A stretch of 64,000 nt of DNA, from the NCBI GenBank assembly GCA_965263035.1, contig OZ253580.1, positions 2,560,001-2,624,000 on the forward strand, read 5' to 3'. Position 1 is the stretch's first letter. Each line of letters begins with the position of its first letter. This document shows positions 4,449 through 42,525 of the stretch, one piece after another. The notes under the pieces were generated by a model, which was not told the origin of the DNA, made no database searches, and saw nothing but the letters and a program-made list of their open reading frames with translations. The DNA is from Acidobacteriota bacterium (GTDB taxonomy: Bacteria > Acidobacteriota > UBA6911 > RPQK01 > JAJDTT01). The translations under genes and the position numbers were made by a program.

Positions 4449-4667
4449 GATCTCGTCTCGTGTCCTTTAAAACTACAACGGGGATGGCTTTTGGGGCAAC
4501 TGGAGACGGGAAAACAGTAACGAGGAAAGAGAGAAGAGGCAGACGTTTGCATGCGGGGACTACATTTCACAGTCGGCGGCGAAATCCTGGAAGACACTCT
4601 TTTGGGAAACTCCTCAACGCGAGACACCTCACCTCCATCTGTTAGTGTGTTCAAAGTCGGAAGAGCC

Positions 4668-6008: not shown

Positions 6009-6062
6009 GTGCTCGATTCACCGGCGTCGCGTCAGGCCTGACGATCCAGGCCGGGACTGAGT

Positions 6063-6296
6063 TCAGGCGGCGGTGCCGCGTCCATTGCGGACGAAGAAAT
6101 CCCGCAGCACATCGAGAGTGCCTTCGACCCGTCCTATGCGGTCACGGAGATCTCCGATCTGGTGATCCATACGGTCACGCAAGTCCTTTATGTCCGCTCG
6201 CAAATCACCGCGCACGGATCGGATGGATCGGTCCAGGTAGAAGAATCCCAGAATGAGAATCGCGGGAGTGATCCACTCGGCAAGTTCAGGTGGCAT
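6063..6296 (-). CDS. small single-TM coiled-coil hypothetical protein
   Basis: 77 aa; N-terminal hydrophobic helix followed by repeated DLRDR coiled-coil; GAGG upstream. Confidence 0.6.
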   Translation of the reverse strand: MPPELAEWITPAILILGFFYLDRSIRSVRGDLRADIKDLRDRMDHQIGDLRDRIGRVEGTLDVLRDFFVRNGRGTAA

Positions 6297-6487
6297 CGGT
6301 TCCTCGTAGAAACAAGAATAACATCCCGGACGAGCTCCAGAAACAGGAAGGATTGGGCGATTGGAAATCGCCCCACCGCCGCCCTCGTACAGGGTTGGAC
6401 GGGACCCCTGATCCCGGTCCTCGATCTCTCGATATCTAAAACGGTACGATTCAGAAAAACGCGAAAGTCGGCGTCCAGGAATATAGA

Positions 6488-11169: not shown

Positions 11170-12794
11170 GCTTCCGTTTCCGCCGCCGTCTCCTGGCTCC
11201 CGCCGCCGCCGGTGCCGTTTTCCTGCTGTCGGGTTGCGCCGCGGAGGAGGAACCTGAGGCAAGGCCCGCCGGGAAGTACCGATTCATCCTCTCCAACGAC
11301 GGGGGATCAGTGGCGGGTCCCGTGCTGGAAGCTCCCATCGGAGTGGAAGGCCTGGTCAAGCTGGCTATAGAACCTCTCCGGGACACCCAGATCAACACCC
11401 TGTTCTGGCAATTGGGAACCGACCCCTACCTGGGGTCCCCGTCCCACCGGCTCTCGGACTACTACTCGCACCGGACGGAGGTGGGCCCCATCTGGGGGAC
11501 GGAGAACCCTTCCTTTCAGAGCGCCGGGCTCTGGCGCATCCGGGAGAACGCGAAACGGTTGATGGAGGCCGGAACCGACCCCGTCGCCGTGGTGGTGGAG
11601 CATGGGCACCGGGCCGGCCTGGAGGTCTTCGTCTGCATGCGGGTCAACGACATCCACGACACCCGTCTGGAGGGTGGGGTGGAGGACCCTCTCATGTCGC
11701 CCGTCAAGAAGCGGCATCCCGACTGGCTCCTGGGCGAAGAAGGCATCCGCAGGACGGCTTACAACTTCGCTCTGCCCCAGGTCCGGGAGTACAAGCTGGC
11801 CCTGGCCCGGGAAGCCATCGAGAACTACGACCTGGACGGTCTGGACTGGGACTTCTGCCGTCACCCCTTCCTCTTTCCCCAGGGGAGCGAAGCGGAGGGC
11901 GCGCCCCTTATGACCGAGCTGCTGGGTGAAATCCGGCGGGCGCTGGACGAGAAAGGGGAGCGGGTGGGCCGCCGGCTCTCCCTATCGGTGAGGGTGCCCC
12001 GCTCTCTGGACGAGGCCCTGGCGCAGGGAATGGACGTGAGGAGTTGGCTCTCGAAGGGGCTGCTGGACATCCTCATCGTCGGCTACCAGCCGGGGAACAA
12101 GCATCGTCTCCCAGTAGAGGAGTACGTGGAGGCGGCTCGGGGAACCCGCACCCGGATCGTGGCCCAGGGCCTGGGGCTCTTCCAGCAGCCCAGACCCCTC
12201 TCGGCCAAGCTCATCTGGAACGAGAAGGACTACTACACGGCCGAGATGTGCCGCGCCGTGGCCGCGGCCCACTACCGGGCCGGCGCCCAGGGGATCTTCG
12301 TGTTCAACAACCATTACCTGCAGGTGGTTCGGGATCGGCAATACGACCGCCTCCCCTGGAAGGAATTGGGGGATCCCCAGGTCATCGCCCGCAAGGACAA
12401 GCACTACCTGGCGGATCAGCAGAAGTGGGGAGCCGGCCGGCTGCCGCTGGACCTGGCGAAGGTGGGAGAAGAGGTGGAAGTCTCGCTGGACGTGGCGGAC
12501 GACTTGGAAGCGGCCAGCCGGGAAGGCGTCCTGAAATCGGCGACGCTCCGTCTTCTGGTGGACCAACTGACCCCTCAGGACCGGCTGGAGGTCACCCTGA
12601 ATGGCCGCCCCATCGGGGATCCCGACACGCAACACGTCTTTTTCAACGAGACCTGGCTCGAGTTCGCAGCGGGTCCTCCCCAGCTCAAGCAGGGCTGGAA
12701 CCGGATCGGTACCGCAGTCCGGGCCCGCAATCCCCAGATCACCAGCCCCCTCTCCCTCAAGAGCGTCGAGATTCTGGTGAAATACACGGAGTGA
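11166..12794 (+). CDS. glycoside hydrolase-like family 10 (GHL10-type) lipoprotein
   Basis: LLSGC lipobox; NDG, MRVNDIH, HPDWLL, YDLDGLDWDFCR motifs; ATGA overlap at 11166. Confidence 0.65.
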   Translation: MSFRFRRRLLAPAAAGAVFLLSGCAAEEEPEARPAGKYRFILSNDGGSVAGPVLEAPIGVEGLVKLAIEPLRDTQINTLFWQLGTDPYLGSPSHRLSDYYSHRTEVGPIWGTENPSFQSAGLWRIRENAKRLMEAGTDPVAVVVEHGHRAGLEVFVCMRVNDIHDTRLEGGVEDPLMSPVKKRHPDWLLGEEGIRRTAYNFALPQVREYKLALAREAIENYDLDGLDWDFCRHPFLFPQGSEAEGAPLMTELLGEIRRALDEKGERVGRRLSLSVRVPRSLDEALAQGMDVRSWLSKGLLDILIVGYQPGNKHRLPVEEYVEAARGTRTRIVAQGLGLFQQPRPLSAKLIWNEKDYYTAEMCRAVAAAHYRAGAQGIFVFNNHYLQVVRDRQYDRLPWKELGDPQVIARKDKHYLADQQKWGAGRLPLDLAKVGEEVEVSLDVADDLEAASREGVLKSATLRLLVDQLTPQDRLEVTLNGRPIGDPDTQHVFFNETWLEFAAGPPQLKQGWNRIGTAVRARNPQITSPLSLKSVEILVKYTE

Positions 12795-12795
12795 G

Positions 12796-14643
12796 ATCGG
12801 GTCGAGTGCAGGGGATTGCGCCCCTGCACCCTCCCACACCACCGGACGTACCGTTTTCAGTATCCGGCGGTTGGAGTCACCCGAGGTCCGATGGAATGAG
12901 GAACCCATAGCGGCGCAGACGGCGGTTGCTCAGGGCCGTGTGCAGCGCTGAGTGCCGGGCGATTCGCCAGCTTCCTCGACTGCTGTGGGCCACTCGAAGC
13001 AGCGGCTCACGCACCCCCAGAGACCGCAGTCGCCGGAGACGCCCTCGCCAACCATGCCAGCGCAACCAGAAGCATTTGCGCATGTGGCGCCGGATCCAGC
13101 CTTCCAACCTCCAGACCGGACGCCGCCATTCCGCCAGCCGGTAGTATCCCCACCAGCCTCGGATGTGCTGCCGCCATTGGTCTCTCAGTCCCAGGCTGCT
13201 GAGGTTCTGTCGGGCGTCCCAGAGTTGGCGCACCCGTAACTTCAGCCGCTTCAGGCTCTCCGGGGCCACTTCGATCTGCCCCTTCCGGGTGATCCGGAAC
13301 CCCAGGAGCTTCCGCTCCCAGGGCCGGCCCACTCCAGTCTTGCGCGCGTTCACCTTCAACCGCAGATGCTTCGCGATCCACTGCGGCAGGTTCCGGACCA
13401 CTCGATCCGCCGCGGTCGCTCCCCCTACGTAGACGTTACAGTCGTCCGCGTAGCGTACGAAGCAGTACCCGCGTCTCTCCAGTTCTTTGTCCAGCGGGTC
13501 CAGGTAGAGGTTCGCCAGCAGCGGGGAGAGCGGTCCGCCTTGCGGCGTCCCCTCCCGGGCTCCCACCACCACGCCTTCCACCAGAACCCCGCTGCGCAGG
13601 TACCGGCCAATCAGTTTCAGCACCCGTTTGTCCCGGATGACGGCCCCGATTCGCCGCATCATGATGTCGTGATGCACCCGGTCAAAGAACTTCTCGATGT
13701 CCAGATCGACGACCCAGTCCCGGCCTCCCCGGACCACGTACTCCCGTGCCGCTCTCACGGCATCGTGAGTGCTGCGTCCCGGTCGGAACCCGTAGCTGTG
13801 CTCGCTGAACCCCGGTTCGAAGATCCGCCCCAGCTCCTGCAACAGCAGTTGCTGGATGAATCGATCCAGCACCGTGGGGATCCCCAGGCAGCGGACCCCA
13901 CCGTTCGGTTTCGGGATTTCCACCCGCCTCACTGGGGTCACCGCGTAGGTCCCGTCCAGCAACTTGCCACGGATTCGCGGCCAGTGCTTCTGAAGGTGTC
14001 CCTCCAGTTCGGTGGTCTTCATGCCGTCCATCCCCGGCGCCCCCCGGTTGCGGAGTACCGCTCCCAAGGCCGCCCCGTAGTTGTCCGCCGAGACCACCTG
14101 TTCCATCAGCGACTCGTACCTCTCCCTTCTTTCCGGGTCTTCGCCGCCACCGAGACTCGATCTCCGCCCTTCCGGCTTGACGGGTTCCACCCTTGGGCCT
14201 TCCGGACCCGGGCCAGAGGATCTCTCCCCGGCTCCCGTCTTCGGAGTTCTTGGCGCCTCCATTGGCGAGTCCTCCATAAGGTCGGTACGACTCCTTCGGT
14301 CCTTCGCTCCACCGGCTCTACCCGGCTTCTTCGCTACTACGACCTCTGCTGACTTCTCAAGGGCTCTCACCCTTGAGATCTCCCCGAGTAAGGTGCTGCA
14401 TCTTTCCCCCCGGGCCGCCCGGCTCTACCTGGTACGTCTGGATGGGGTTCGGGTTTCGCTGTTGCTCGCCAGCTCACCGCCCGCACCCGGCCTCGCTGCC
14501 GGTTCGTGTTCCTGCGGTCGTGGGTTTGCCTTCCGCTTCCTTCAGCTTCACCTCGCGGCTACGCCTTGCGGTTCGGCTAGGGTTGGTCCCATCACCTCCC
14601 TTGGGATCTTTCATCCCTTAGATACAGCCCATGTCGGGCGCAC
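12796..14643 (-). mobile_element. complete group II intron, class C (IIC)
   Basis: Minus strand starts GTGCGCCCGACATGGG and ends CCCGAT; domain V AACCGCCGGATACTGAAAACGGTACGTCCGGTGGTG with CGC triad; domain VI hairpin TGCAGGGG-CGCAAT-CCCCTGCA; located just 3' of a hairpin. Confidence 0.93.
12877..14277 (-). CDS. ltrA: group II intron reverse transcriptase/maturase, no endonuclease domain
   Basis: GAPGMDG, LGIPTVLDR, SYGFRPGRS, GTPQGGPLSPLL, RYADD, X domain RGWWGYY; start codon uncertain. Confidence 0.93.
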   Translation of the reverse strand: MEDSPMEAPRTPKTGAGERSSGPGPEGPRVEPVKPEGRRSSLGGGEDPERRERYESLMEQVVSADNYGAALGAVLRNRGAPGMDGMKTTELEGHLQKHWPRIRGKLLDGTYAVTPVRRVEIPKPNGGVRCLGIPTVLDRFIQQLLLQELGRIFEPGFSEHSYGFRPGRSTHDAVRAAREYVVRGGRDWVVDLDIEKFFDRVHHDIMMRRIGAVIRDKRVLKLIGRYLRSGVLVEGVVVGAREGTPQGGPLSPLLANLYLDPLDKELERRGYCFVRYADDCNVYVGGATAADRVVRNLPQWIAKHLRLKVNARKTGVGRPWERKLLGFRITRKGQIEVAPESLKRLKLRVRQLWDARQNLSSLGLRDQWRQHIRGWWGYYRLAEWRRPVWRLEGWIRRHMRKCFWLRWHGWRGRLRRLRSLGVREPLLRVAHSSRGSWRIARHSALHTALSNRRLRRYGFLIPSDLG

Positions 14644-14831
14644 GAGCGGCGGCTTTCTTGCCGCCGACAGGGGGGCAGGGGGGACGGAGTCCCCACTTTA
14701 CACTTTCACCCCTCTACACTTCCCGGCCACCGAATCGCATAGCGGCAATGAAGAGCAGGCGGCAAGAAAGTCGCCTGGCCCAGTGGGCGACAAGAAAGTC
14801 GCCCCTCCTGGCGATTAGAAATCGCCCCTCC
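14644..14831. repeat. cluster of four REP-like palindromes
   Basis: Copies at 14644-14666 (reverse), 14758-14775, 14786-14808, 14810-14831; core GGCGRY-loop-RTCGCC followed by SCTCC in full copies. Confidence 0.85.
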
Positions 14832-15631
14832 TACGACCGCGCGTCGGAGGCGTCGATCCTCTCGATCCCTGAAGCGTGGGTCTTCACGGCTTCCAGCACC
14901 AAGGTGCGGCCCGCCAGCAGATCCAGGCTGTGCATCGCCCGGCGTACGTCCTTGTTGGCCTCCCGCTGGCGGGGATCGGTCTCCTTGCGCATGGTCCGGA
15001 TGGAGTAGAGCCGATGGAAGGGATAGAAGAGGAGCAGCGGCCAGCAGGAGCGGCGCCAGAGGTCGGTGGTGGCTTGAGTGATCCGGAAGCCGCTGCTGTG
15101 GAGCGCGTACCGGATCTGGTAGTAGGTCATGGGGTTGATGTGGTCGAACACGGGAGTGTGGGCGAACTCGTTCAGGGGACGGGGACAGAGAGAATAGAAC
15201 CCGGTCAGAAAGTACTTCAGCCTCGAAGCCGAATTCAGGATGTTGGGAGTCGAAAGGATGAGCCTGCCCTGCCACTTGAGGATCCGGTGGCATTCCCGGA
15301 TGAAACGGAAGGGGTGCTCCAAATGCTCGATGCCTTCCAGACAGACGACGTAGTCGAACGACTCATCCGGCAAGTCCAGGGGGCGGTTCATGTCCAAACC
15401 GAGACATTCCACGCCCTCGCACTTGAAGAAGCCCGGGTCCAGGTCCGCCGCCACCGTCTGGAAACCCATTTCTCGCAGGCAGTGGGAGATTCCTCCCTCG
15501 CCTGAGGGAATGTCCAGGATCCTGCCCCTGGGCAAGTCTTCCATGAGATCCAGGACCTTGAAGAAGGTCCGTTCGTGGGCAATGACCTGAAAGCCCTCGG
15601 GTTTCTTCCGAGCTCGACTCACCGATCCCAT
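14831..15631 (-). CDS. class I SAM-dependent methyltransferase
   Basis: ILDIPSGEG, FDYVVCLEGIEHL, GRLILSTPN. Confidence 0.88.
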   Translation of the reverse strand: MGSVSRARKKPEGFQVIAHERTFFKVLDLMEDLPRGRILDIPSGEGGISHCLREMGFQTVAADLDPGFFKCEGVECLGLDMNRPLDLPDESFDYVVCLEGIEHLEHPFRFIRECHRILKWQGRLILSTPNILNSASRLKYFLTGFYSLCPRPLNEFAHTPVFDHINPMTYYQIRYALHSSGFRITQATTDLWRRSCWPLLLFYPFHRLYSIRTMRKETDPRQREANKDVRRAMHSLDLLAGRTLVLEAVKTHASGIERIDASDARS

Positions 15632-15655
15632 TTCAGCACCGCCGCGAAGATGGTC

Positions 15656-17986
15656 TCAAGTTCGGACCATGGAAAAAAGGAGAATGGCGCCCGTACTGAA
15701 CAGGAGATTGGGACCCCAGGCGGCCAGCAGCGGCGAGAGCAGGCCGTTGGCGCCCATCATGCCGAAGATCCCAAAGGCGCCCCAGTAGCAGATCCCGATG
15801 AGCACCCCGGCCGCAATGCCGTAGAGCGCCCCCTTGCGACCCATGGAGAAGGCGAAGGGGATGCCCAGTATGGCCATGATGGGTGTGACCAGAGGCAGGG
15901 AGATCTTGGTGTAGAGATCCGTCTTCAGGTGGTCCACCTCGAAGCCTCCCTGTTGCAGGTCGAGGATGTACCGGTTCAGCTCCGGGTAGGTCATCTTGCT
16001 GGATTCCTTCACTTCACGGGCGAAGTACTCGGGACCTTCGCTCAGTTCGAATTCACGGCTCTCGAACCGGATGAAATCTTTTCGCTCCGGGTGTTCCAGC
16101 TCTCTGATCCAGCCTTGGGACAGGACCCACCGTCCGGTGTGCCGGTCCCAGGCCGCCTTCTGAGAATAGACGTGCCGTTTCAGCCGTCCCTCCTGGATGT
16201 CCAGGTCGAGGACGGAAAGGTCGCCGAAAAGGCCCCGCTGGGCATCGAAGTAATTGTAGTGGTAGAGCCGTTTCCCCTCGCCGAAGATCCAATTTCGTCC
16301 TTGCTGGTAGAAGGTCTGGACGGGACGGCCCTTGATGATGGTGCGCAGGTTGTCCTGCCGCTGGTTGGCGTAGGGAAGGACGTATTCCTGGAGCACGTAG
16401 AGGAAGGTTCCCACCAGCAGAGTCAGCCCCAGCACCGGCAGGCTCACGCGGTACACGCTGACGCCGCAGGCCTTGAGCGCCGTGATCTGACCCGTCTTGT
16501 CCAGCAGGCCGAAGGTGACGAGGGTGCCGATGAGGATGGAAAGGGGCACCAGCAGCATCAGGATGTGGGGCGCCAGGTAGAAGAAGTAGGAGATCAACAA
16601 GCCGTAGGGACTATCGTATTCCAGGACGTCGTCGATGAGGTCGAAAAAGGTGAAGAGATAGAAGAGGGCCATCGTGACCGAGAGGGCGAGGAAGGAGTAG
16701 AGGAGAAAGGTCTTCACCAGGTAGAGATCGATGACGCGAGCCACTCGGGGCCGCATCTGGATCAGGCGGGACCGGCGCCGTTGGAAGCCGGAACTGCTTC
16801 GAATCGTCGAGAGCATCCGCCGGAAACTCTGGGCGGCTCGGGTCAACTTCCGGTCCAGACGAGGGTAGACCTGGCGCCAGCGCAACGGTCTCGAATCCAA
16901 GGCGCCGTAACGGAATGTGGCCCAAGCCAGCAATCCCGTCAGCAGGTTGGTTCCCCACACACCCACCAGGGGATGCAGCATCCCGCCGCGGGCCAACTCG
17001 AAACCGGTCGCGAAGAGGACATAGTAGGCCAGCGCCACCACTACGCTGGCCACCAGCCCGTATCCGCGCCCGCCACGATGATTGCGGGCGCCCAGAGCGA
17101 CTCCCAGCACGGCGAAGATGATCGGCGAAACCGCCAGCGCCAACCGGCGGTTCAACTCCATCCAACTCCGGTCTCGCGTGGCGCCCGGATCGCCTTGGAT
17201 CTCCCTCCAGAGTTGAGTTGGCGCTTTGTCTTCGGAGCGCCTGGGACCGTTCGAGTTCTGTTCCACTGGAGGGAGTGGGAGCGCAAAGTCCCAATTGCGA
17301 AACCGGCTCAGCGTCATTTTTTCGGGAGCGTCCCGCGGGGTGTTGTAGCGCAGCCCGTCCTCAAGATGTAACTGGACCCGGCGCTTGTCTTCGTCGATGA
17401 GGGCCTCCCCGCCCCGGGAGAGGACGATTTCGGTCTCCGCATCGCTGCCGGTGGAAAGGAAGACCCCGTTCCAGAATCCGTTCCTCAGGTCCACGTCGCC
17501 GGCGTAGAGCACCCAACCCTTCGGCAGCCCTTCGTAGAAGACGCGCGCTTTGATCCGGGAAAGGACCGGCTGGACGCCGATCTCATGACGGAGCGTCTGC
17601 AGGTTCCAGTTCCCGGCCGGCAGCAACACCAGGGTGAGTCCCAGCGTGAGCAGGCTCACCAGCAATCCGATGTTGACCACGTGGCGCACCATCCGGTGGA
17701 CGCCGATCCCGCAGGCTCGCATGGCCACGATCTCGCTGTCGGTGGAGAGGCGGCTGAATCCGATCAGCGTCCCGATGAGGAAGGAGAGGGGCACGCTGAA
17801 GACCAGGATGCTGGGCAGAATCGACAACACGGTCTTGACGACCGTCAGGACGGGAGCGTCGGCTCGGATGAGGAGCTCGGTCAGGCGGCCGAACTCCCGG
17901 GTCAGAACGGCGAAGGTGAGGAACAGGAGGGTGATCAGGGAAGGGGGCGCAATCTCCTGGTTGATGAGCTTGTTGATCTTGGTCAT
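15656..17986 (-). CDS. lptF: fused LPS export ABC permease LptF-LptG
   Basis: Two tandem YjgP/YjgQ-type halves (DSEIVAMRACG; GQITALKACG; AAWGPN) in one 776-aa ORF. Confidence 0.88.
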   Translation of the reverse strand: MTKINKLINQEIAPPSLITLLFLTFAVLTREFGRLTELLIRADAPVLTVVKTVLSILPSILVFSVPLSFLIGTLIGFSRLSTDSEIVAMRACGIGVHRMVRHVVNIGLLVSLLTLGLTLVLLPAGNWNLQTLRHEIGVQPVLSRIKARVFYEGLPKGWVLYAGDVDLRNGFWNGVFLSTGSDAETEIVLSRGGEALIDEDKRRVQLHLEDGLRYNTPRDAPEKMTLSRFRNWDFALPLPPVEQNSNGPRRSEDKAPTQLWREIQGDPGATRDRSWMELNRRLALAVSPIIFAVLGVALGARNHRGGRGYGLVASVVVALAYYVLFATGFELARGGMLHPLVGVWGTNLLTGLLAWATFRYGALDSRPLRWRQVYPRLDRKLTRAAQSFRRMLSTIRSSSGFQRRRSRLIQMRPRVARVIDLYLVKTFLLYSFLALSVTMALFYLFTFFDLIDDVLEYDSPYGLLISYFFYLAPHILMLLVPLSILIGTLVTFGLLDKTGQITALKACGVSVYRVSLPVLGLTLLVGTFLYVLQEYVLPYANQRQDNLRTIIKGRPVQTFYQQGRNWIFGEGKRLYHYNYFDAQRGLFGDLSVLDLDIQEGRLKRHVYSQKAAWDRHTGRWVLSQGWIRELEHPERKDFIRFESREFELSEGPEYFAREVKESSKMTYPELNRYILDLQQGGFEVDHLKTDLYTKISLPLVTPIMAILGIPFAFSMGRKGALYGIAAGVLIGICYWGAFGIFGMMGANGLLSPLLAAWGPNLLFSTGAILLFSMVRT

Positions 17987-18115
17987 GGCCGCGCCGTAGC
18001 TACCCGGTCACCTGTCCCGAGACCGGACAATCTACCAAAAATAGACATGATTCCCATTGGGAGATTCCAATGGATGAGCGGAGGGGAAACTTCCGGTCCC
18101 TCCTAAACCCCCTGT

Positions 18116-18139
18116 CGGCGACTGGAAAGTCGCCGCTCC
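18116..18139 (+). repeat. REP-like palindrome
   Basis: CGGCGACTGGAAAGTCGCCGCTCC. Confidence 0.8.
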
Positions 18140-18156
18140 AGTGCTAGAATTTCCAC

Positions 18157-18777
18157 GTGATTCTCCACGACCTGGGGGTCCTGCCGTTTGCGGAGGCTTT
18201 TGCGCTTCAGGACGAGACGGTCCGTCGAGTTGCGGCCGGTCGTCAGGAGGAGACTCTCCATCTGGTGGTGCATCCCCACGTCTTTACCGTGGGGAGCGGG
18301 GGAAACGCACAGAACCTGCTGGCCCCTTTTGATCCTGAGGGACGTCCCATCGACTTGGTCCGAATCAATCGCGGGGGCGACGTGACCTACCACGGACCGG
18401 GACAACTGGTCGGGTACCCGCATCTGGACTTGCGGAGACGGGGACGCGACGTGGGGTTGTTCCTGCGGACCCTGGAGCAGAGCCTGCTGGACACGGCCGC
18501 CCATTTCAGGGTGCAGGCGTTCCGCAGGGAAGGCCTGACCGGCATCTGGACCCGGCGGGGCAAGCTGGGGTCCATCGGCGTGGGGGTGCGCCGTTGGGTC
18601 ACCATGCATGGGTTCGCCCTGAACCTGAACCCCGACATGAGGTACTTCCAGTTGATCAACCCCTGCGGCATGGCAGGCTGTCCCGTCACTTCGCTGGCAG
18701 CCGAGGCGGGAGCCGAGCCGGGCATGGAGGAGGTCAAGGAAGTCTACTGGCGCTCGTTTCGCCGGGTTTTCGGCTGA
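18157..18777 (+). CDS. lipB: lipoyl(octanoyl) transferase
   Basis: HPHVFTVG, RGGDVTYHGPGQLVGYP, HGFALN, INPCG. Confidence 0.95.
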   Translation: MILHDLGVLPFAEAFALQDETVRRVAAGRQEETLHLVVHPHVFTVGSGGNAQNLLAPFDPEGRPIDLVRINRGGDVTYHGPGQLVGYPHLDLRRRGRDVGLFLRTLEQSLLDTAAHFRVQAFRREGLTGIWTRRGKLGSIGVGVRRWVTMHGFALNLNPDMRYFQLINPCGMAGCPVTSLAAEAGAEPGMEEVKEVYWRSFRRVFG

Positions 18778-18783
18778 GAGAGT

Positions 18784-18806
18784 GGAGGGGCGATTTCCAG
18801 TCGCCC
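18784..18806 (-). repeat. REP-like palindrome between convergent lipB and nuoI
   Basis: GGAGGGGCGATTTCCAGTCGCCC. Confidence 0.8.
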
Positions 18807-18837
18807 ATTCCTCGATGTCCCGTCCGCTCGGAAGGGC

Positions 18838-19365
18838 TCAATCTTTTTGCGGCGCCGGCGAGCTCTCCAGGAGCTTCGCCATGTCGTAGACCATTCCTTC
18901 CCGCGTGTAGGAGGAGAACTCCAGAATCCCCGTGTCCATCCGGATGGCGTCCTCGGGACACGCCTCCACGCAGTAGCCGCAGAAGACGCAGAGACCCAGG
19001 TCGATGTCGAACCGAACCGGATATTTTTCGATCTGGGGGTTGGGGTGCTCACCGGCCACGATGTAGATGCAGCGGGCGGGACAAGCCGTTTCGCACATCA
19101 TGCAGGCCACGCATCGGGGCGAGCCATCTTCCCGCCGAGTCAGCCGATGCAGGGTCCGCAGCCTGGAGGCCAGCGGCCGCCGTTCTTCCGGATACTGATA
19201 GGTTTCGGCGCCGCGAAGATGCCGCGCCAATCCCACCTTGTGGGCCAGGTGGATAAGTATGTTGCGGAAGAAATGGCGCGCGGTGAGCCGAAGTCCCTTC
19301 AGGATTCCCGGAAGATAGGTGGATTCCCAGAAACTCAGCTGGGCCTCGACCTTCTTGATGGCCAT
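18838..19365 (-). CDS. nuoI: NADH-quinone oxidoreductase subunit I
   Basis: Two 4Fe-4S motifs CVACMMCETACP and CVFCGYCVEACP; TYQYPEE. Confidence 0.95.
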   Translation of the reverse strand: MAIKKVEAQLSFWESTYLPGILKGLRLTARHFFRNILIHLAHKVGLARHLRGAETYQYPEERRPLASRLRTLHRLTRREDGSPRCVACMMCETACPARCIYIVAGEHPNPQIEKYPVRFDIDLGLCVFCGYCVEACPEDAIRMDTGILEFSSYTREGMVYDMAKLLESSPAPQKD

Positions 19366-19455
19366 GATCAGTTCCCGCTCATTTCCCGCGTCGTCGTCCG
19401 AACGCCATGAGACTACGCCGACTGGCTCTCCTCTGGCAAGACAGATACTTCGTCA

Positions 19456-20538
19456 TCAATTCGTTCCCTGCCACAAGAGGACCACCCCCGTCACCAGGAT
19501 GTTGAGGATGGAGAGGGGCAACACCATGGTCCAACCCAATCTCAAGAGCTGGTCCCACCGAAAGCGGGGCAGGGTCCAGCGGATGAGCATGAAGATGAAG
19601 CAGAAGAACGAGACCTTGAAGAGGAAAGCGCCGACCTGAAGCAACAGCACCACAGTCTGGGGAAGAGGCCAGGCGGCGCCCCACGGAAACTCGAATCCGC
19701 CCGGCGTGAGATAGGGCACCTGCCACCCCCCCAGAAACAGGGTGGTGACCAGGGAGGCCGCCAGCACCGTCTCCACGAAATCGGCGGTGTAGAACATGCC
19801 GAACTTCATCCCGCTGTATTCGACGAAATAGCCGATGATCTCCGATTCCCCTTCCGGAATGTCGAAGGGGACCCGTTTGGTCTCGGCCAGCGCGGCGGTG
19901 GTGAACAGGATGAAACCCAGCGGCTGCAGGACGATCCCCCAACGGGGAAGCCAGCCGAGCAACAGCTCTCCCTGCTGGAGCACCATCTCCTGGAGATGGA
20001 GCGTCCCGAAGACCATGATCAGGCCGATGACGGTGGCGCCCAGGGTGATTTCGTAGGCGATCATCTGGCTGGAGGCCCTCAGGCCTCCCAAAAGGGCGTA
20101 GTTGTTGGCGGAAGACCAGCCGGCAAGAACGAAGCCGTAGATCCCCATGCTCATGGTGGCCAACACGTAGAGGAGACCCACGTTCAAGTCCAGGATCTGG
20201 AGCGACACCGTGTGTCCCCCCAACTCGTAGATGCCCCCGAAGGGTATGACGGCAAAGCTCACCAGGGGGAAGAAGAGGGCGATGACGGGAGCCAGGGTGT
20301 GGACCAGGCGGTTCCCCTGATTGGGAACGAAGTCCTCCTTGGTCAGCATCTTGAGGGCGTCGGCGATGGGGTGAAAGAGCCCCAGCAAGCGCAGGCCCAG
20401 GATGCTGGCCCGGTTGGCGCCGATTCGATCCTGCATCACGGCGCTCTGCTTCCGCTCCAGCCAACTGAGCAGATAGACGAAGCCCATGACCACGTTGAAA
20501 AAGAAGAAGACCTTGGCCAGAACGATCAGGGTACTCAT
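19456..20538 (-). CDS. nuoH: NADH-quinone oxidoreductase subunit H
   Basis: ERK..QDRIG, ADALKMLTKE, PFDIPEGESE, LPRFRWDQL. Confidence 0.95.
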   Translation of the reverse strand: MSTLIVLAKVFFFFNVVMGFVYLLSWLERKQSAVMQDRIGANRASILGLRLLGLFHPIADALKMLTKEDFVPNQGNRLVHTLAPVIALFFPLVSFAVIPFGGIYELGGHTVSLQILDLNVGLLYVLATMSMGIYGFVLAGWSSANNYALLGGLRASSQMIAYEITLGATVIGLIMVFGTLHLQEMVLQQGELLLGWLPRWGIVLQPLGFILFTTAALAETKRVPFDIPEGESEIIGYFVEYSGMKFGMFYTADFVETVLAASLVTTLFLGGWQVPYLTPGGFEFPWGAAWPLPQTVVLLLQVGAFLFKVSFFCFIFMLIRWTLPRFRWDQLLRLGWTMVLPLSILNILVTGVVLLWQGTN

Positions 20539-20561
20539 CTTGTTCGGGTGCGGGACCCCCG

Positions 20562-22148
20562 TCAGCCGGCGCCGTTCGAGCCGAGGATCTCCCCGAACTC
20601 GCCCAGATCCTGGTAGCTCCGGCCCCGCCACTCGGAGAAGAGGTCCTCCGGTTCCGGGTAGAACAGGGCATGGCCCAATCGTTGGGCCAGGTCACAAAGG
20701 ATCTCCAGGTCCGGCCTGGACTCTCCCAGCGGTAGCAGCGCCTGGGCAAAGTGTTGGACCCGTCCCTCGAAATTGGTGAACGTCCCTTCCTTCTCCATGT
20801 GGGTGACGCCGGGAAGGACGGCGTCGGCCATTCGGGCCGTGGAGTTCCAGTTGGCGCCCTGGAACACCACGTACTCGGCCTGCCGGATCAACTCTCCGGC
20901 CTGGTCCGAATCGAAGTCGTGCCCAAAGACGTAAAGGACTTTCACTCCACCGGCCGCGGCATCCCCCAGGGTCCGCTCCGCGTCACCCTGCAAACCCAGA
21001 TCCACGGCCCCGCGGCTGTTGGGGTTCCGGTCTCCCAGCAGCAGAAGCCCGTCCTCCGCCGCCGTTTTCTCCCAGGGATTCCGGAATGGAATTCCGGCGA
21101 CACCCAACTGCTCCTGGAACAACTTCCGGACCAGATAGAGCTCCTCGTTGGATTGCTGGGGAGAAGCGATGATGCCCAATCCCTCCGCTCCGAACTTCTC
21201 GACGGTGGTTCGCAGGGCCGTGGCCACCTCCTCCAGGACCTCCTCCCAGGCGCGAGGTTGGAGTTCCCCTCCAATGCGCAGGCAGGGGTTCTCGATGCGA
21301 TCCCGGTCGACGAAACCGTAGCCGAATCGGCCCTGATCGCACATCCACCATTGGTTCACCAGCGGGTTGAACCTTGGCTTGAGCCTCTGGACCCTCCTGC
21401 CGTCCGCCTTGTAGCTGCGCTGCACATTGAAGTGGACCGCGATGTTGCAGCCCCGGGAGCAACCGTTGCAGACGGACGCTTCCTGCGAGAGGTACCAGAC
21501 CCGGCACTGGAAGCGGAACTCCCGCTCGGTCAACGCCCCCACCGGACAGATGTCGATGACGTTCCCCGAGTAGTTGTTGTCCAGCTCCCGGCCTGGGAAC
21601 AGGTCGATGACCGACCGGTCGCCTCGATCCAGTACCCCCAGCTCATGGCTCCCCGACACCTCTTCACAGAAGCGGACGCAGCGGGTGCAGAGGATGCACC
21701 GCTCCTGGTCCAGCATGACGTGGGGTCCGATGGGAAAAGCCTTCTTCCGTTTGATCTTGTCTTCGTAGACCCGGCTCTCGTGCAGCCCATGCTCCATGTA
21801 GAAATTCTGGAGATCGCATTCTCCCGACTGGTCGCACACGGGACAGTCCAGGGGATGGTTGACCAGCAGAAACTCCAGCATGGCCTGGCGCATCCGGAGG
21901 ACCTGCTCCGAATCGGTGGAGACCTTCATGCCGTCCCGGACGCGAATGTGGCAGGAGATCTGCAGCTTGGGCATGCCTTCGATCTCGACCGCGCACATGC
22001 GGCAGCTGCCGGCGACGCTGAGTCCCGGGTGGTAGCAGTAGCGGGGAACCATCACCCCCAACCGCTCCGCGGCCTCCAGGACGTTGGTGCCCGGTTCGAC
22101 CTGGATGTCCTGTCCGTCGATATTGACCGTATCCATCGGATTCACCAT
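20562..22148 (-). CDS. nuoG: NADH-quinone oxidoreductase subunit G (short form)
   Basis: CYHP..GSCRMC, HPLDCPVCDQSGEC, CILCTRC, CPVGAL; start 22148 or 22136. Confidence 0.92.
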   Translation of the reverse strand: MVNPMDTVNIDGQDIQVEPGTNVLEAAERLGVMVPRYCYHPGLSVAGSCRMCAVEIEGMPKLQISCHIRVRDGMKVSTDSEQVLRMRQAMLEFLLVNHPLDCPVCDQSGECDLQNFYMEHGLHESRVYEDKIKRKKAFPIGPHVMLDQERCILCTRCVRFCEEVSGSHELGVLDRGDRSVIDLFPGRELDNNYSGNVIDICPVGALTEREFRFQCRVWYLSQEASVCNGCSRGCNIAVHFNVQRSYKADGRRVQRLKPRFNPLVNQWWMCDQGRFGYGFVDRDRIENPCLRIGGELQPRAWEEVLEEVATALRTTVEKFGAEGLGIIASPQQSNEELYLVRKLFQEQLGVAGIPFRNPWEKTAAEDGLLLLGDRNPNSRGAVDLGLQGDAERTLGDAAAGGVKVLYVFGHDFDSDQAGELIRQAEYVVFQGANWNSTARMADAVLPGVTHMEKEGTFTNFEGRVQHFAQALLPLGESRPDLEILCDLAQRLGHALFYPEPEDLFSEWRGRSYQDLGEFGEILGSNGAG

Positions 22149-22150
22149 AT

Positions 22151-22309
22151 CAGCCCGCGGCAAAAGTCGTCACGGCATTCGACCGGGTCTGCATCGTGCG
22201 CGAACTGCGTTGCTCCTCGGTCACATACTCCCGGTATGCTCCCTCAGAGCGCCTTGTCCGGCGGGCGCAGCCCCGGTTTCGGTGCTCGCGGGACTTTCGC
22301 CGCGGACTG
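22151..22309. mobile_element. ~160-bp MITE-like repeat, copy 1
   Basis: Imperfect TIRs CAGCCCGCGGCAAAAGTC / GACTTTCGCCGCGGACTG; closely similar copies at 45882 and 49912. Confidence 0.82.
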
Positions 22310-22339
22310 ATATCAGCCCGGAGCCGTGCCGGGACGCCG

Positions 22340-23638
22340 TCACTCTTGGGCCCCGGCCGGAACCCGCCGCTCCAAATCGCATCTCCCGTGCTTCAGGTGG
22401 TAGTCGAACTCGTCTCTGAACTTGACCAGGAAACTCCGCAAGGGCATGGCGGCGCCGTCACAAAGGGCGCAGATGGACGTCCCCGACATGTTGTCCGCGA
22501 TCTGCAGGAGGTCCTCCACGGAACACCGCCTCGCCCGGCCCGCGTGAATGGCGTCCACCGTCCGGGCCACCCACCCGGTGCCCTCCCGGCAGGGGGTGCA
22601 CTGGCCGCACGACTCGTGGGCATAGAAGTGGCTGATCACCCGCATGGCCTCCACCATGCAGACGTCCTCGGCCATGACCACGATTCCGGCAGAACCCAGC
22701 ATGGAACCGATCCTGGCCAGGTGGTCGAAATCCAGAGGCACGCCGATCTCGTCGGCGGTCAGGACGGCGGCCGAGCTTCCTCCGGGGATCACCGCCTTCA
22801 ACTGCTTGCCGTCGGCCATGCCCCCTCCACAATCGTAGATCAGCTCCCTGAGGGGCGTCCCCATGGGGAGTTCATAGACCCCCGGCCGCTTGACGTCGCC
22901 GGAGAGAGAGAAAAGCCGCAGGCCTCCGTTGCGCTCCGAGCCCAGGTTCGCAAACCACTCCCCGCCGTTGGTGACGATGTGGGGAAGATAGGTCAGGGAT
23001 TCCACGTTGTTGATGACCGTGGGGCATCCGAAGGCGCCCACCACCGCCGGGAACGGAGGCTTGAGCCGGGGCCACCCCTTCTTGCCCTCCAGCGACTCCA
23101 GCAGGCCGGTCTCCTCTCCGCAGATATAGGCCCCCGCTCCCACGTGCATGTAGACATCGAGAGAGAAGTCGCGGCCCAGGACCCGGCTCCCCAGAATACC
23201 CTCCCGATAGGCCTCTTCGATGGTTTCCCGGAGGATCCGTTCGGGATGGACGTACTCGCCGCGGATGTAGATGTAGGCAGTGTGGATTCCCACCGCGCGG
23301 GCGCAGATGATCATCCCTTCCAAGAGCCGATGGGGGTCCCACTCCATGATGTAGCGGTCCTTGAAGGTCCCCGGCTCACCCTCGTCGGCGTTGACCACGA
23401 GGTAGATGGGCTTGCCCGTGTCGCGGGGAACGAAGCTCCACTTTCGGCCCACCGGGAAGCCGGCGCCTCCCAGACCGCGGAGATTCGACTTCATGACCTC
23501 CTCGGTGATCCGTTCCGGAGCCATCTCATCCAGGGCCTTGAGAGCGGCCTGGTAGCCGCCGTGCTCGCGGTAGTAGTCGAGCTTGCGAGCCTGGGGATTG
23601 CCGAAGTCGCGGGAGATGAGCCGGAGCCGGTCCCTCAC
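22340..23638 (-). CDS. nuoF: NADH-quinone oxidoreductase subunit F
   Basis: LRGLGGAGFP, NADEGEPGTFKDR, GAGAYICGEET, ESCGQCTPCREG. Confidence 0.96.
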   Translation of the reverse strand: MRDRLRLISRDFGNPQARKLDYYREHGGYQAALKALDEMAPERITEEVMKSNLRGLGGAGFPVGRKWSFVPRDTGKPIYLVVNADEGEPGTFKDRYIMEWDPHRLLEGMIICARAVGIHTAYIYIRGEYVHPERILRETIEEAYREGILGSRVLGRDFSLDVYMHVGAGAYICGEETGLLESLEGKKGWPRLKPPFPAVVGAFGCPTVINNVESLTYLPHIVTNGGEWFANLGSERNGGLRLFSLSGDVKRPGVYELPMGTPLRELIYDCGGGMADGKQLKAVIPGGSSAAVLTADEIGVPLDFDHLARIGSMLGSAGIVVMAEDVCMVEAMRVISHFYAHESCGQCTPCREGTGWVARTVDAIHAGRARRCSVEDLLQIADNMSGTSICALCDGAAMPLRSFLVKFRDEFDYHLKHGRCDLERRVPAGAQE

Positions 23639-40543: not shown

Positions 40544-40614
40544 TGTCGTGGCAGACGAGGGAAAACGAATGGGGCTTATATATCTAACTTGATGGATCGT
40601 CATGAAGATGTACT

Positions 40615-41944
40615 GTGAGGGTTCACACAACATTTCAGTGCCGAGCCAAGATGTCCAAGGGAGGGCTTCGGCGTCTGGATTGGATCAGATCGGTTTTGAA
40701 CCGCCTCTACAATTCCGCCCTGGAGGAGCGTAAGGACACCTGGGAGCCTGCGCCGCAGAAATTGATCTACTGCGAAAGCGGTAGAATCGGTCCATATTTC
40801 CCCGATTTCTCGACGAATAGAACAACTATGCACCTCCAGATCGAGAAAATCCGGCCTCGATTCCCCACTTTCTCGCTACGATCATTTCTACCGCGCAGAC
40901 TCCTGGGAGAAGGATGAGAAATCCGTGACTCTGTATGACCGGTTGCGGAGTTTGACGCAGCAGCGGAGAAACGATCCGGACGGGCTCGGGGCCATTGCCG
41001 TCAAGGCCGAAAGGGGGATGTTGTTTCGCTTGGAGCGAGCCTTCCAGGCCTGCTTCCGGCGCTGCAAGGCGGGAGAGGATCCTGGGTATCCCCGGTTCCG
41101 ACCGATCTCCAGGATGGAGACCATTGATATCGTCGATCCCAGGACGACGATGGTGAAGAAGCGGGCCCGAGGATACGCCATCCGTCCCCAGGGCTTTCCG
41201 ACGATTCGGTTGTTCCCGGCCCGGCCCTTGCCCGATGCTGAACTCAAGGCGTTGCGGATCGTCCGCAAGCCGAATCGAGTGTACGTGGATCTGACCTATG
41301 AAGTCGAGAAGCAGCCGATGCCGGGGTGTGCATCGGCGGTCGGAATCGACCTGGGTGTCCGCAAGCGGGCGGTTTTGTCCACCGGTGAACGAATCGAACG
41401 CAACACCCGGGACCGGGCGGAGATCAGGCGGCAACAGAGAAAGATTGCTCGGTGCCGGCGGCGGTCGAACCGGAGGAAGAAGAGAGTCCGCCGGTTGGCG
41501 GGAATGCGTTTCCGGGAGGGTGTACGCAACCGGAATGCCTGTCACCGGCAGACCACTGAGATCATCCGCAAGAACGGACTGATTGCGGTGGAGAAGTTGG
41601 ACATCAAGGGGATGACGACGAAGGGCTTGAATCGGGAGATGCTCTCACAGCAATGGGGGCTGCTGCGGAATCAACTCCAGTACAAGGCAGAGTGGGCCGG
41701 TCGGGAGTTCGTGGAAGTCAACCCACAATACACGTCGCAGGACTGTCACCGTTGTGGTGCCCGGAATCGACCGGGAAGGAGCGAGACGTATCGCTGCTCA
41801 GCCTATGATCTCAGAATGGACAGGGACCATAATGCAGCCCTGAACATTCTCAGGGCGGGGGTTCTTGCCCTGGGTGCCGAAACCTGGGCCAGCGGGCCGA
41901 GCGTGGCGCCGGAACTGTGTGCTGACGTCAAGTCAGATATATAA
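40615..41944 (+). pseudogene. tnpB: RNA-guided endonuclease TnpB, interrupted by a MITE
   Basis: LYNSALEERK, GYPRFR, RuvC AVGIDLG / IAVEKL / DRDHNAALNI, zinc finger CHRC..CSAY; removing 163 bp restores a 388-aa frame. Confidence 0.9.
40744..40902. mobile_element. 159-bp MITE inserted in tnpB
   Basis: Imperfect TIRs GAGCCTGCGCCGCAGAAATTGATC / GATCATTTCTACCGCGCAGACTC; CTGG duplicated at 40740-40743 and 40903-40906. Confidence 0.88.
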
Positions 41945-41955
41945 GCCCCAAACGA

Positions 41956-42525
41956 ATGTCAGAGGAGAGGCGGCAACCGCCGATGGAGATCGAGGCCAAG
42001 GTCCCTCTCGAAGTGGAGGAACTGGGTACCTTGCGCTCCAGGCTGCGGGAGATCGGGGCCCGCCTCAGCCGGCCCCGCCTCCGGGAGGAGAACACCCTCT
42101 TCGACTTCCCCGACGGAAGATTGGAGCAGGCCGATTCCGCCCTCCGGGTCCGGTCCTTCGGTCAGGAGTGCCTGCTGACCTACAAGGGGAGGAGCCGGGA
42201 GCACTCCTTTCTGAAGTTGAGGGAAGAGATCGAGACCCGGGTGGAGGACGCGGCCGCACTGGTCGAGCTGTTCGAAGCTCTGGGGCTTCGAAAGGCCTTT
42301 CACTACTGGAAGTATCGCGAGATCTACGACCTGGAAGTGCACCCCGGAGCCGTCACCATCGCGCTGGACGAGACGCCGATCGGCTTCTTCGCCGAGGTCG
42401 AAGGCCCGGAGGAATCGATTCAGGTGGTGGTCGATCTCATGAGTTGGGACCCGGCGTCGTTCATTCGGGAAAGCTACCCCAAGTTGTATCGGGAGCACGG
42501 CCTCGGGTCCCCGGGAGTGGAATGA
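41956..42525 (+). CDS. CYTH domain protein (class IV adenylate cyclase family)
   Basis: EIEAK, ALRVR, LTYKG, REEIE, KYRE, FAEVEG; start 41956 or 41983. Confidence 0.88.
   Translation: MSEERRQPPMEIEAKVPLEVEELGTLRSRLREIGARLSRPRLREENTLFDFPDGRLEQADSALRVRSFGQECLLTYKGRSREHSFLKLREEIETRVEDAAALVELFEALGLRKAFHYWKYREIYDLEVHPGAVTIALDETPIGFFAEVEGPEESIQVVVDLMSWDPASFIRESYPKLYREHGLGSPGVE

What the first reader, a model, noticed from the sequence alone, without database searches (positions are those of the whole stretch)
40563..41957. TnpB as sole cargo of a TIR/TSD-bounded element with IS1595-like ends
Seen: tnpB is enclosed by 22-bp inverted repeats (GGGGCTTATATATCT[A/G]ACTTGA, 21/22 match) and by a perfect 8-bp direct repeat AAACGAAT immediately outside them. 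Its stop codon (41942-41944) lies inside the right TIR and no transposase is present. Known: canonical TnpB hosts (IS200/IS605 with Y1 TnpA, IS607 with a serine recombinase) lack TIRs and make no such duplication. TIRs with 8-bp AT-rich duplications and passenger genes are typical of the DDE IS1595 family. Inference: an RNA-guided nuclease has been captured by a DDE-type non-autonomous transposon that is mobilised in trans. This is the best candidate for an undescribed system in the window, though novelty cannot be confirmed without a search.
Basis: partly seen in the sequence, partly recalled or inferred. Interest (0 to 1): 0.85.

Follow-up and report, generated by a model that had tools for sequence, protein, structure and literature searches.

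The report
TnpB inside an IS1595-type transposon
This is a broken copy of a small mobile element in which the gene for an RNA-guided nuclease (tnpB) sits between the inverted ends of an IS1595-type transposon and depends on transposases encoded elsewhere in the genome; this kind of partnership is already published, but the IS1595 partner appears not to be.

Summary
The 22-nt inverted repeats (21/22) and the perfect 8-bp duplication AAACGAAT bound a 1,379-bp element at 40571-41949. Its only gene is tnpB.

- The genome has 11 tnpB loci of this family. Eight have both ends and site-specific 8-bp duplications.
- The genome has 17 IS1595-type DDE transposase hits. Their elements carry GGGGATTATATA... 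ends and 8-bp duplications.
- A sister tnpB subfamily matches the IS1595 end at 23/24 nt.
- Seven of eight congeners have the window site empty. Two of them hold a single AAACGAAT.

The window copy is dead. A 155-bp MITE splits tnpB, and a zinc-finger Cys has become Tyr. An intact 388-aa copy lies elsewhere in the genome.

The last ~115 nt fold into a covarying, omegaRNA-like structure whose terminal hairpin overlaps the right repeat.

New lead: 25 of 27 tnpB elements have G|A at the left junction when oriented by tnpB, against 9 of 34 IS1595 controls. This may be a TAM-linked constraint.

DDE-linked TnpBs with inverted ends, including solo copies moved in trans, were described in PNAS 2023. 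IS1595 is not named in that paper's main text. I rate this a new member of a known kind.

The parts
40563..40570 (.). Left copy of the 8-bp target-site duplication AAACGAAT
   Evidence: A single copy is present at the empty orthologous site in G007 and G001.
40571..40592 (+). Left terminal inverted repeat GGGGCTTATATATCTAACTTGA
   Evidence: The terminal 12 nt match resident IS1595 ends at 11/12.
40615..40746 (+). tnpB 5' fragment: GTG start and codons 1-44, ending ...KDTWE
   Evidence: It is 97.7% identical to residues 1-44 of the intact copy.
40747..40909 (.). Inserted 155-bp MITE (40747-40901) plus the second copy of its 8-bp duplication CCTGGGAG (40902-40909; first copy 40739-40746). The 163 bp shift the tnpB frame.
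   Evidence: repeat D11; 164 copies of at least 140 nt in the genome. One search shows contigs that join 40738 to 40902.
40910..41944 (+). tnpB 3' part (residues 45-388 of the family) carrying the RuvC motifs GIDLG, IAVEKL and DRDHNAALNI. The zinc finger is damaged by TAT (Tyr) at 41804-41806. Stop at 41942-41944.
   Evidence: Other contigs read G at 41805, which gives Cys (table 3).
41844..41949 (+). Predicted omegaRNA (reRNA) scaffold. Nested stems span 41844-41918. A terminal hairpin CTGAC/GTCAG lies at 41922-41936, with its 3' arm inside the right repeat. The scaffold ends in ...UAUAAGCCCC.
   Evidence: 29 pairs, 9 with compensatory changes, in 12 sequences; alignment; weak depth hint in RNA libraries.
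41928..41949 (-). Right terminal inverted repeat (GGGGCTTATATATCTGACTTGA on the minus strand)
41950..41957 (.). Right copy of the 8-bp duplication AAACGAAT. Its last two bases are the AT of the ATG of the downstream CYTH-domain gene (41956-42525).

Best explanation
The element at 40571-41949 is a non-autonomous derivative of an IS1595-family (DDE) insertion sequence. Its cargo is an ISDra2-like tnpB gene together with its omegaRNA.

It has no transposase of its own. It is moved in trans by IS1595-type transposases encoded by autonomous elements elsewhere in the same genome. These recognise GGGG(A/C)TTATA... inverted ends and make 8-bp duplications of A/T-rich targets.

The omegaRNA scaffold is embedded in the last ~115 nt of the element. 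Its final hairpin and 3' tail double as the right inverted repeat, so whatever follows the repeat (duplication plus flank) would be the guide-side sequence.

Shown: anatomy, multiple copies, differing duplications, empty sites, shared ends with IS1595 elements, RNA covariation.
Inferred: that the IS1595 transposase is what moves it, and that TnpB/omegaRNA cut the unoccupied site to favour retention or homing.

The window copy is a dead member. tnpB is split by a MITE and a zinc-finger Cys is lost, but the ends and the omegaRNA region are intact.
For: - TIR and duplication are real and non-random.
- The genome has 11 tnpB loci of this family. Eight have both ends and an 8-bp duplication that differs at each site.
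- Two copies at different sites are 99.8% identical over 1,244 bp, which points to recent movement. Eleven copies in congener G007 are 95-99% alike.
- Across six genomes, 27 of 32 full-length elements have a duplication with at most one mismatch.
- There are 17 IS1595 DDE hits in the genome. Eleven of these are bounded by GGGGATTATATA... repeats with perfect 8-bp duplications. Family assignment comes from NCBIfam and Pfam.
- The left end of a sister tnpB subfamily equals the IS1595 end at 23/24 nt.
- All 6 genomes with tnpB elements have PF12762 hits.
- The window site is empty in 7 of 8 congeners. The copy-D site is empty in five others, and G007 holds a single AAACCCAA there.
- The intact copy is 388 aa, scores 194 bits on NF040570 (cut-off 100), and aligns over residues 31-368 with solved ISDra2 TnpB at E 1e-27.
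- The 3' structure has 9 of 29 pairs with compensatory changes.
- Tree: the 12 TIR-type rows form one clade at 100/99. None of the 5 Y1-linked rows is near it.
Against: - Trans-mobilisation is not demonstrated.
- The window subfamily's repeat matches the commonest IS1595 end at only 14/22 overall (11/12 terminal). I found no IS1595 variant with a closer inner repeat.
- Five of 32 elements (G000 copy C, L075, L077, L084, L089) lack a recognisable duplication.
- Congener G005 has several tnpB elements but only one PF12762 hit, which carries a stop. Its tnpB copies carry stops too.
- Two of three congeners without tnpB elements also have IS1595, so co-occurrence is a weak test.
- Two weak Y1_Tnp hits (39 and 36 bits) exist in the genome, far from any tnpB copy.
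- Nothing here shows that TnpB or the RNA is active. The RNA-library signal rests on contig depths from one study, which the tool says cannot rank parts of a gene.
Confidence: 0.85

Rival explanations
1. The flank motif G|AWA is not a TnpB/omegaRNA (TAM) constraint. It reflects the transposase's own target preference, or selection for insertions just upstream of genes in the co-directional orientation.
For: - IS1595 controls also prefer G/C next to an A/T-rich 8-mer (position table).
- 11 of 23 tnpB elements have a co-oriented ORF of at least 100 aa starting within 80 nt downstream.
- The window copy sits between the Shine-Dalgarno-like GAGGG and the ATG of the CYTH gene.
- Two subfamilies inserted at the same nucleotide position after GATAGG in two species, which suggests a hot spot.
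Against: - The bias follows tnpB orientation. G|A is found in 25 of 27 tnpB elements, against 5/17 and 4/17 in the two orientations of IS1595 elements (Fisher p 1.3e-7; kin are not fully independent).
- The bias holds in subfamilies whose two repeats are alike (both A or both C at position 5), so repeat asymmetry does not explain it.
- Only about half of the sites have a co-oriented downstream ORF.
Confidence: 0.35
2. tnpB is passive cargo. An IS1341-type tnpB once landed inside an IS1595-derived MITE, and the composite now spreads only because of its ends. TnpB and its RNA contribute nothing.
For: - The window copy and several others are broken yet retained.
- A 649-bp internally deleted copy still has ends and a duplication.
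- A review argues that DDE cut-and-paste elements gain little from OMEGA (PMC13565253, passage).
Against: - Many copies keep open frames of 388-397 aa with the RuvC motifs.
- The RNA stems are kept by compensatory changes across subfamilies that differ by about 25%.
- The stop codon and the terminal hairpin are fused with the right repeat in every subfamily.
- The orientation-specific flank motif is unexplained by passive cargo.
Confidence: 0.15
3. It is an ordinary IS200/IS605-family (IS1341-group) element moved by a Y1 TnpA. The inverted repeats and duplication are chance, or belong to a palindromic target.
For: - The protein is an IS605-type TnpB.
- Two weak Y1_Tnp hits exist in the genome.
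Against: - 27 elements have different 8-bp duplications.
- Empty sites hold one copy of the 8-mer and no palindrome.
- The same ends bound DDE elements.
- Chance expectation for the repeat is 0.00.
- IS200/IS605 elements have neither TIRs nor duplications (PMC13565253 and PMC4810608, passages).
Confidence: 0.02

Closest known systems
DDE-transposase-associated TnpB branches (DDE-1 to DDE-6) of Altae-Tran et al. 2023, PNAS (PMC10691335; passages read)
   Same: TnpB lies inside transposons with inverted terminal repeats. The tnpB 3' end is close to the transposon end. Solo TnpBs are flanked by ends shared with transposase-bearing elements and are inferred to move in trans.
   Different: The main text names only IS630 (DDE-6). 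A 2026 review lists ISL2, IS630 and IS1031 (PMC13565253). IS1595 occurs 0 times in the PNAS main text. Here tnpB and the transposase were never found within one pair of ends in the genomes searched. The duplication is 8 bp and variable, and the stop codon lies inside the repeat.
IS1595 family insertion sequences
   Same: GGGG-initial inverted repeats, 8-bp A/T-rich duplications, and resident autonomous copies with a Zn-ribbon plus DDE transposase.
   Different: No transposase in cis. The cargo is an RNA-guided nuclease with its guide RNA. Insertions show an orientation-specific G|AWA flank that the autonomous elements lack.
IS200/IS605 family, IS1341 group (tnpB-only), with ISDra2 TnpB as the studied enzyme
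   Same: Protein family and length. RuvC and zinc-finger motifs. The guide RNA is encoded at the 3' end of the gene and runs to the element's end.
   Different: Those elements have subterminal hairpins, no inverted repeats and no duplication. They insert 3' of a fixed 4-5-nt site that serves as the TAM. The defining end features were tested here and not met.
Fanzor1/Fanzor2* in eukaryotic cut-and-paste transposons (Bao & Jurka 2013, PMC3627910, abstract only; Yoon et al. 2023, PMC10711439, passages)
   Same: A TnpB-type nuclease in non-autonomous TIR/TSD transposons. The TIR forms part of the guide-RNA scaffold. The problem of fitting a duplication into TAM and scaffold is shared.
   Different: This is a bacterial host and a compact 388-aa ISDra2-like protein. 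The duplication is 8 bp and variable. Whether the 3' duplication is scaffold or guide here is unknown.

Membership tests
TnpB (RNA-guided endonuclease, IS200/IS605 type) | Sequence membership above curated cut-off | tested here: met
   Intact paralogue P0001 scores 194.2 bits on NF040570 (cut-off 100). Pfam finds OrfB_IS605 and Cas12f1-like_TNB. The window ORF has the same two Pfam families.
TnpB (RNA-guided endonuclease, IS200/IS605 type) | RuvC Asp-Glu-Asp motifs and CxxC...CxxC zinc finger | tested here: inconclusive
   In P0001 the motifs GIDLG, IAVEKL, DRDHNAALNI and CHRC...CSAC align with the matching motifs of a solved TnpB-type nuclease. That these are the catalytic residues is recalled. 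The window copy keeps the RuvC motifs but reads CSAY, so the fourth Cys is lost.
TnpB (RNA-guided endonuclease, IS200/IS605 type) | Intact reading frame in the window copy | tested here: not met
   A 163-bp insertion after codon 44 shifts the frame.
TnpB (RNA-guided endonuclease, IS200/IS605 type) | Structured guide RNA encoded at the 3' end and reaching the element boundary | tested here: met
   Consensus fold of 12 diverse copies gives 29 pairs, 9 with compensatory changes. No Rfam family matches. Expression is only hinted at.
IS200/IS605 family (IS1341 group) | No terminal inverted repeats, no target duplication, fixed 4-5-nt target at the left end | tested here: not met
   22-nt repeats and variable 8-bp duplications in 27 elements. 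Empty sites confirm the duplication.
IS200/IS605 family (IS1341 group) | Y1 (HUH) TnpA partner | tested here: inconclusive
   None lies in or beside any copy. Two weak PF01797 hits (39 and 36 bits) lie elsewhere in the genome. Y1 genes flank only distant relatives of 30-34% identity.
IS1595 family (as a non-autonomous derivative) | Ends like those of IS1595 elements | tested here: met
   Sister subfamily: 23/24 nt. Window copy: 11/12 terminal nt and 14/22 overall.
IS1595 family (as a non-autonomous derivative) | 8-bp target-site duplication | tested here: met
IS1595 family (as a non-autonomous derivative) | IS1595 DDE transposase encoded within the element | tested here: not met
   The only ORF family inside is tnpB. 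No tnpB locus lies beside a PF12762 hit in G000 (coordinates). Hence non-autonomous.
IS1595 family (as a non-autonomous derivative) | Mobilisation by an IS1595 transposase | not testable with these tools
   Only co-residence is shown: 17 hits in G000, and hits in all 5 other genomes that carry the tnpB elements.
DDE-associated TnpB branches of Altae-Tran et al. 2023 | Placement in one of the branches DDE-1 to DDE-6 of their tree | not testable with these tools
   The tree and the lists are in supplements, which are closed. In my tree the nearest outgroups after a SAR202 element are TIR elements flanked by TA (L104, L200), as expected of IS630-type elements.

The most novel reading that the evidence does not exclude
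This is a bacterial counterpart of the Fanzor solution. An ISDra2-like TnpB lineage has hopped between DDE transposon families: TA-flanked IS630-like ends, a SAR202 type with 6-7-bp duplications, and IS1595 ends with 8-bp duplications. In the IS1595 form, TnpB/omegaRNA still performs homing or retention. Only insertions whose left junction reads G|AWA in tnpB orientation survive, because that motif, which spans the flank and the first bases of the 5' duplication, is the TAM or part of it. The C-ending right repeat protects the occupied site.
Probability: 0.35. Interest if true: 0.7.

Novelty: new member of a known kind. Interest (0 to 1): 0.5.

Why it matters
A 2026 review of OMEGA systems calls the association of prokaryotic TnpB with DDE transposons rare. 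It offers two untested reasons: little benefit after cut-and-paste excision, and inflexible target recognition (PMC13565253).

This genus offers a natural test bed:
- dozens of recent insertions
- matched autonomous IS1595 elements as internal controls
- empty sites in sister species
- a guide-RNA scaffold fused to the transposase-binding repeat
- a strong orientation-specific flank motif

Together these make two questions directly testable in bacteria: how a TAM-dependent nuclease coexists with a transposase that makes a variable 8-bp duplication, and whether homing works for DDE elements. The compact 388-aa enzyme may also have an unusual TAM.

Tried and rejected
- Rfam: no family for the 3' RNA. 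The only hit was an rpsB sRNA at E 0.41, below gathering score.
- Metagenome contig scan: 373 relatives, none closer than 46% identity. No further members of the clade and no element with tnpB and an IS1595 transposase in cis.
- TIR plus duplication scan of 89 distant loci: only L097 was clear. L200 was flagged and later read as a TA-flanked TIR. My first scan required an 8-bp duplication and missed L097.
- SAR202 relative: its genome has 2 complete copies and 3 lone ends of its repeat. ORFs beside the lone ends are housekeeping genes, and the one IS1595 hit there has different ends. Its partner was not found.
- IS1595 ends in G004, G005, G006, G008, G001 and G002: my inverted-repeat finder gave nothing usable for most loci.
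- Laid contigs: no contig joins across the whole element, so the runs gave no empty-site evidence. Contigs cannot show RNA ends or strand.
- The empty site in G002 (L270) and the copy-D site in G006 (L279) were not resolved by my pattern. G008 had no match for the copy-D flank.
- Co-mention search for 'TnpB' plus 'IS1595': 9 papers. None links the two in title or abstract. The one I opened lists them as separate genes.
- I did not use structure prediction, complex prediction or the large protein searches. The questions here were about DNA ends.
Full report
**1. Observation**

The stretch 40563-41957 reads AAACGAAT | GGGGCTTATATATCTAACTTGA ... TCAAGTCAGATATATAAGCCCC | AAACGAAT. The repeat finder gives arms of 23 nt at 96%. 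The degenerate 22-mer occurs only at these two places in the window with up to 3 mismatches, and 100 shuffles give 0.00 expected.

The only gene family between the repeats is tnpB (Pfam OrfB_IS605 and Cas12f1-like_TNB). Its TAA stop at 41942-41944 lies inside the right repeat. The neighbours are a NamZ-type gene ending at 40543 and a CYTH-domain gene whose ATG (41956) overlaps the right duplication.

**2. The window copy is broken**

Searching the genome with the element splits the query.
- Positions 1-184 and 336-1394 match three other loci contiguously.
- Positions ~176-345 match dozens of short loci.

The middle piece is a 155-bp MITE (40747-40901) with its own 8-bp duplication CCTGGGAG. 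There are 164 copies of at least 140 nt in the genome. It interrupts tnpB after codon 44 and shifts the frame.

The fourth zinc-finger Cys is Tyr (CSAY against CSAC). Contigs from other copies or strains read G at 41805, which restores Cys.

An intact 388-aa paralogue (P0001; G000 1886870-1888033, minus strand) is 96% identical to the window's 3' part. It scores 194 bits on NCBIfam guided_TnpB (cut-off 100) and aligns over residues 31-368 with solved ISDra2 TnpB at E 1e-27.

**3. A family of TIR/TSD-bounded tnpB elements**

tblastn finds 11 loci in the genome.
- Eight have both ends and an 8-bp duplication: AAACGAAT, AAAAGAAG, AAACCCAA, ATATTCAT, ATAAAATA, ATATTATA/GTATTATA, ATAAGAAG, ATATGATT.
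- One has both ends but no duplication.
- Two are 5'-truncated.

They fall into subfamilies about 75% alike in DNA, all ending GGGG(A/C)TTATA... Two copies at different sites are 99.8% identical.

Among 60 relatives, matches at E 1e-20 or better occur in 5 of 8 congeners and in 0 of 52 other genomes of the family and order. Public records of these congeners are titled Acidobacteriota MAGs.

Pooling genomes, 27 of 32 full-length elements have a duplication with at most one mismatch.

**4. The partner**

PF12762 (IS1595 DDE) has 17 hits in the genome. Eleven of these elements, and six in G007, are bounded by GGGGATTATATACGAAAGTGCCGA-type repeats (or near variants) with perfect 8-bp duplications. 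The commonest is 1,762 bp. Its ORF scores 178.9 bits on 'IS1595 family transposase' (cut-off 75).

| tnpB subfamily | Match to the commonest IS1595 end |
|---|---|
| G007 subfamily, left end | 23/24 nt |
| Window subfamily | 11/12 terminal nt, 14/22 overall |

All six genomes with tnpB elements have PF12762 hits. So do two of the three congeners without them. No tnpB locus lies beside a transposase gene in G000 (coordinates).

**5. Empty sites**

The orthologous NamZ-CYTH spacer is uninterrupted in 7 of 8 congeners, and the eighth was not resolved. G007 reads GAGGGG AAACGAAT GTCGGAGG and G001 reads GAGAGG AAACGAAT GCCGGAGG, each with one copy of the 8-mer. So the duplication was made on insertion.

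The same holds for the internally deleted copy D. G007 has a single AAACCCAA at that site. In G004 the same position after GATAGG is occupied by another subfamily with another duplication, AAACGAAA.

**6. The RNA**

In an alignment of 12 copies from all subfamilies, the last ~115 nt form nested stems. The consensus fold has 29 pairs, 9 of them kept by changes on both sides. Each subfamily has a terminal hairpin whose 3' arm is the inner part of the right repeat, followed by (U)AUAA(G/U)CCCC. The structure lies inside the coding region, so the C-terminal codons, the RNA scaffold and the transposase-binding site overlap.

Contigs from two RNA libraries of one study have far higher depth over 41836-41963 than over the gene body.

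| Run | Depth over 41836-41963 | Depth over gene body |
|---|---|---|
| X15 (RNA library) | 9,528-23,296 | 27-109 |
| X16 (RNA library) | 3,413-6,687 | 30-170 |

Two runs of unrecorded kind show no such excess. Contig depth cannot properly rank parts of a gene, so this is only a hint.

**7. A flank motif tied to tnpB orientation**

Oriented by tnpB, the base before the duplication is G in 26 of 27 elements. The first duplicated base is A in 26 of 27, the second is A or T in 27 of 27, and the third is A in 20 of 27.

G|A occurs in 25 of 27. The exceptions are the window copy, which has A at -1 where the empty sites in G007 and G001 have G, and one copy whose right duplicate starts with G.

In 17 autonomous IS1595 elements, G|A occurs 5 times in one orientation and 4 in the other (Fisher p 1.3e-7; related elements are not fully independent).

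Right flanks of partial copies, of copies without a duplication, and of two RNA-run contigs start with A in 10 of 12.

The bias holds in subfamilies whose two repeats are alike. Only 11 of 23 sites have a co-oriented downstream ORF.

For Fanzors, the 5' duplication is read as part of the TAM and the 3' duplication is in the RNA scaffold (PMC13565253; PMC10711439). By analogy, G|AWA may be the TAM or part of it. The occupied right junction reads C|AWA and would be spared. This is inference, at about 0.35-0.4.

**8. Origin**

In a tree of 41 proteins (two rows dropped for stops):
- The 12 TIR/8-bp elements form one clade (100/99).
- Their sister is a SAR202 element at 44% identity (100/100). It has different 17-nt repeats and duplications of 7 and 6 bp in two copies.
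- Next come L200 and L104, whose repeats are flanked by TA on both sides. TA is the duplication of IS630.
- All five Y1-linked relatives lie across the root.

The lineage therefore seems to have lived in DDE-type elements before acquiring IS1595 ends.

**9. Literature**

IS200/IS605 and IS607 lack inverted repeats and duplications.

Altae-Tran et al. 2023 report the following (passages read):
- six DDE-associated TnpB branches, all with inverted terminal repeats
- tnpB usually within 250 bp of the end
- solo TnpBs with ends nearly identical to those of transposase-bearing elements, inferred to move in trans

IS630 is the only DDE family named in that main text, and 'IS1595' occurs 0 times. The 2026 review lists ISL2, IS630 and IS1031. 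The full-text search for TnpB plus IS1595 found 9 papers, none linking them. Supplements were closed, so an IS1595-type branch may already be listed there.

**10. Verdict**

This is a new member (IS1595 partner, tnpB only in trans) of a published kind. The window copy is a dead member of an otherwise recently active family. The orientation-specific flank motif and the scaffold/repeat overlap are the parts worth an experiment.

Noticed in passing
window 40747-40901 (duplication 40739-40746 / 40902-40909): A 155-bp MITE with imperfect inverted ends (CTGCGC(C/G)G(C/T)AGAAAT) and an 8-bp duplication. There are 164 copies of at least 140 nt in the genome. It also sits inside tnpB copy I (G000 ~571,350). 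Its transposase partner is unknown.
   Followed up: partly
G000 1740263-1742024 (L038), the commonest IS1595 element: Downstream of the transposase gene the element carries about 700 bp more. This includes a 107-aa ORF matching NA-iREase1/Mrr_cat restriction-endonuclease-like domains (31.5 bits), a possible passenger fragment.
   Followed up: partly
G000 1410200-1410860 (copy D) and G004 (L076/L281): The same nucleotide position after GATAGG, upstream of one orthologous gene, is occupied in two species. The occupants are different tnpB-element subfamilies with different duplications (AAACCCAA and AAACGAAA). The site is empty in five other congeners. This is either a hot spot or a sign of guided re-insertion.
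   Followed up: partly
G000 1410200-1410860 (copy D): A 649-bp internally deleted element keeps both repeats, the duplication and the whole omegaRNA-like region, but only the first ~108 and last ~89 codons. It is a natural RNA-only derivative.
   Followed up: no
L097 and G061 (SAR202 MAG) C99:2215-3595, C182:497-1878: The nearest outgroup tnpB (44% aa) is also a tnpB-only element with perfect 17-nt inverted ends (GAGACGATTTCACAAAT). Its two copies have duplications of 7 and 6 bp. No matching transposase was found.
   Followed up: partly
L104/L192 and L200: More distant members of the same clade (33-34% aa) are bounded by ~20-nt inverted repeats sharing TCAGTTTGAA and flanked by TA on both sides, as expected of IS630-type elements.
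   Followed up: partly
window 41950-41958 and 40556-40570: The insertion lies between the Shine-Dalgarno-like GAGGG and the ATG of the CYTH-domain gene. The gene now has ...AAGCCCC in place of its ribosome-binding site, and any read-through from tnpB would enter it.
   Followed up: no
window 41836-41963: In two metatranscriptome assemblies of one study, contig depth over the last ~110 nt of the element is 35-850 times that over the tnpB body. Two other runs show no such excess. Only contigs were available, so no RNA ends can be read.
   Followed up: partly
G000 3478135-3478365 and 2482924-2483100: Two weak Y1_Tnp (PF01797) matches of 39 and 36 bits with partial model coverage, not near any tnpB copy. 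They are possibly REP-associated or degenerate Y1 genes.
   Followed up: no
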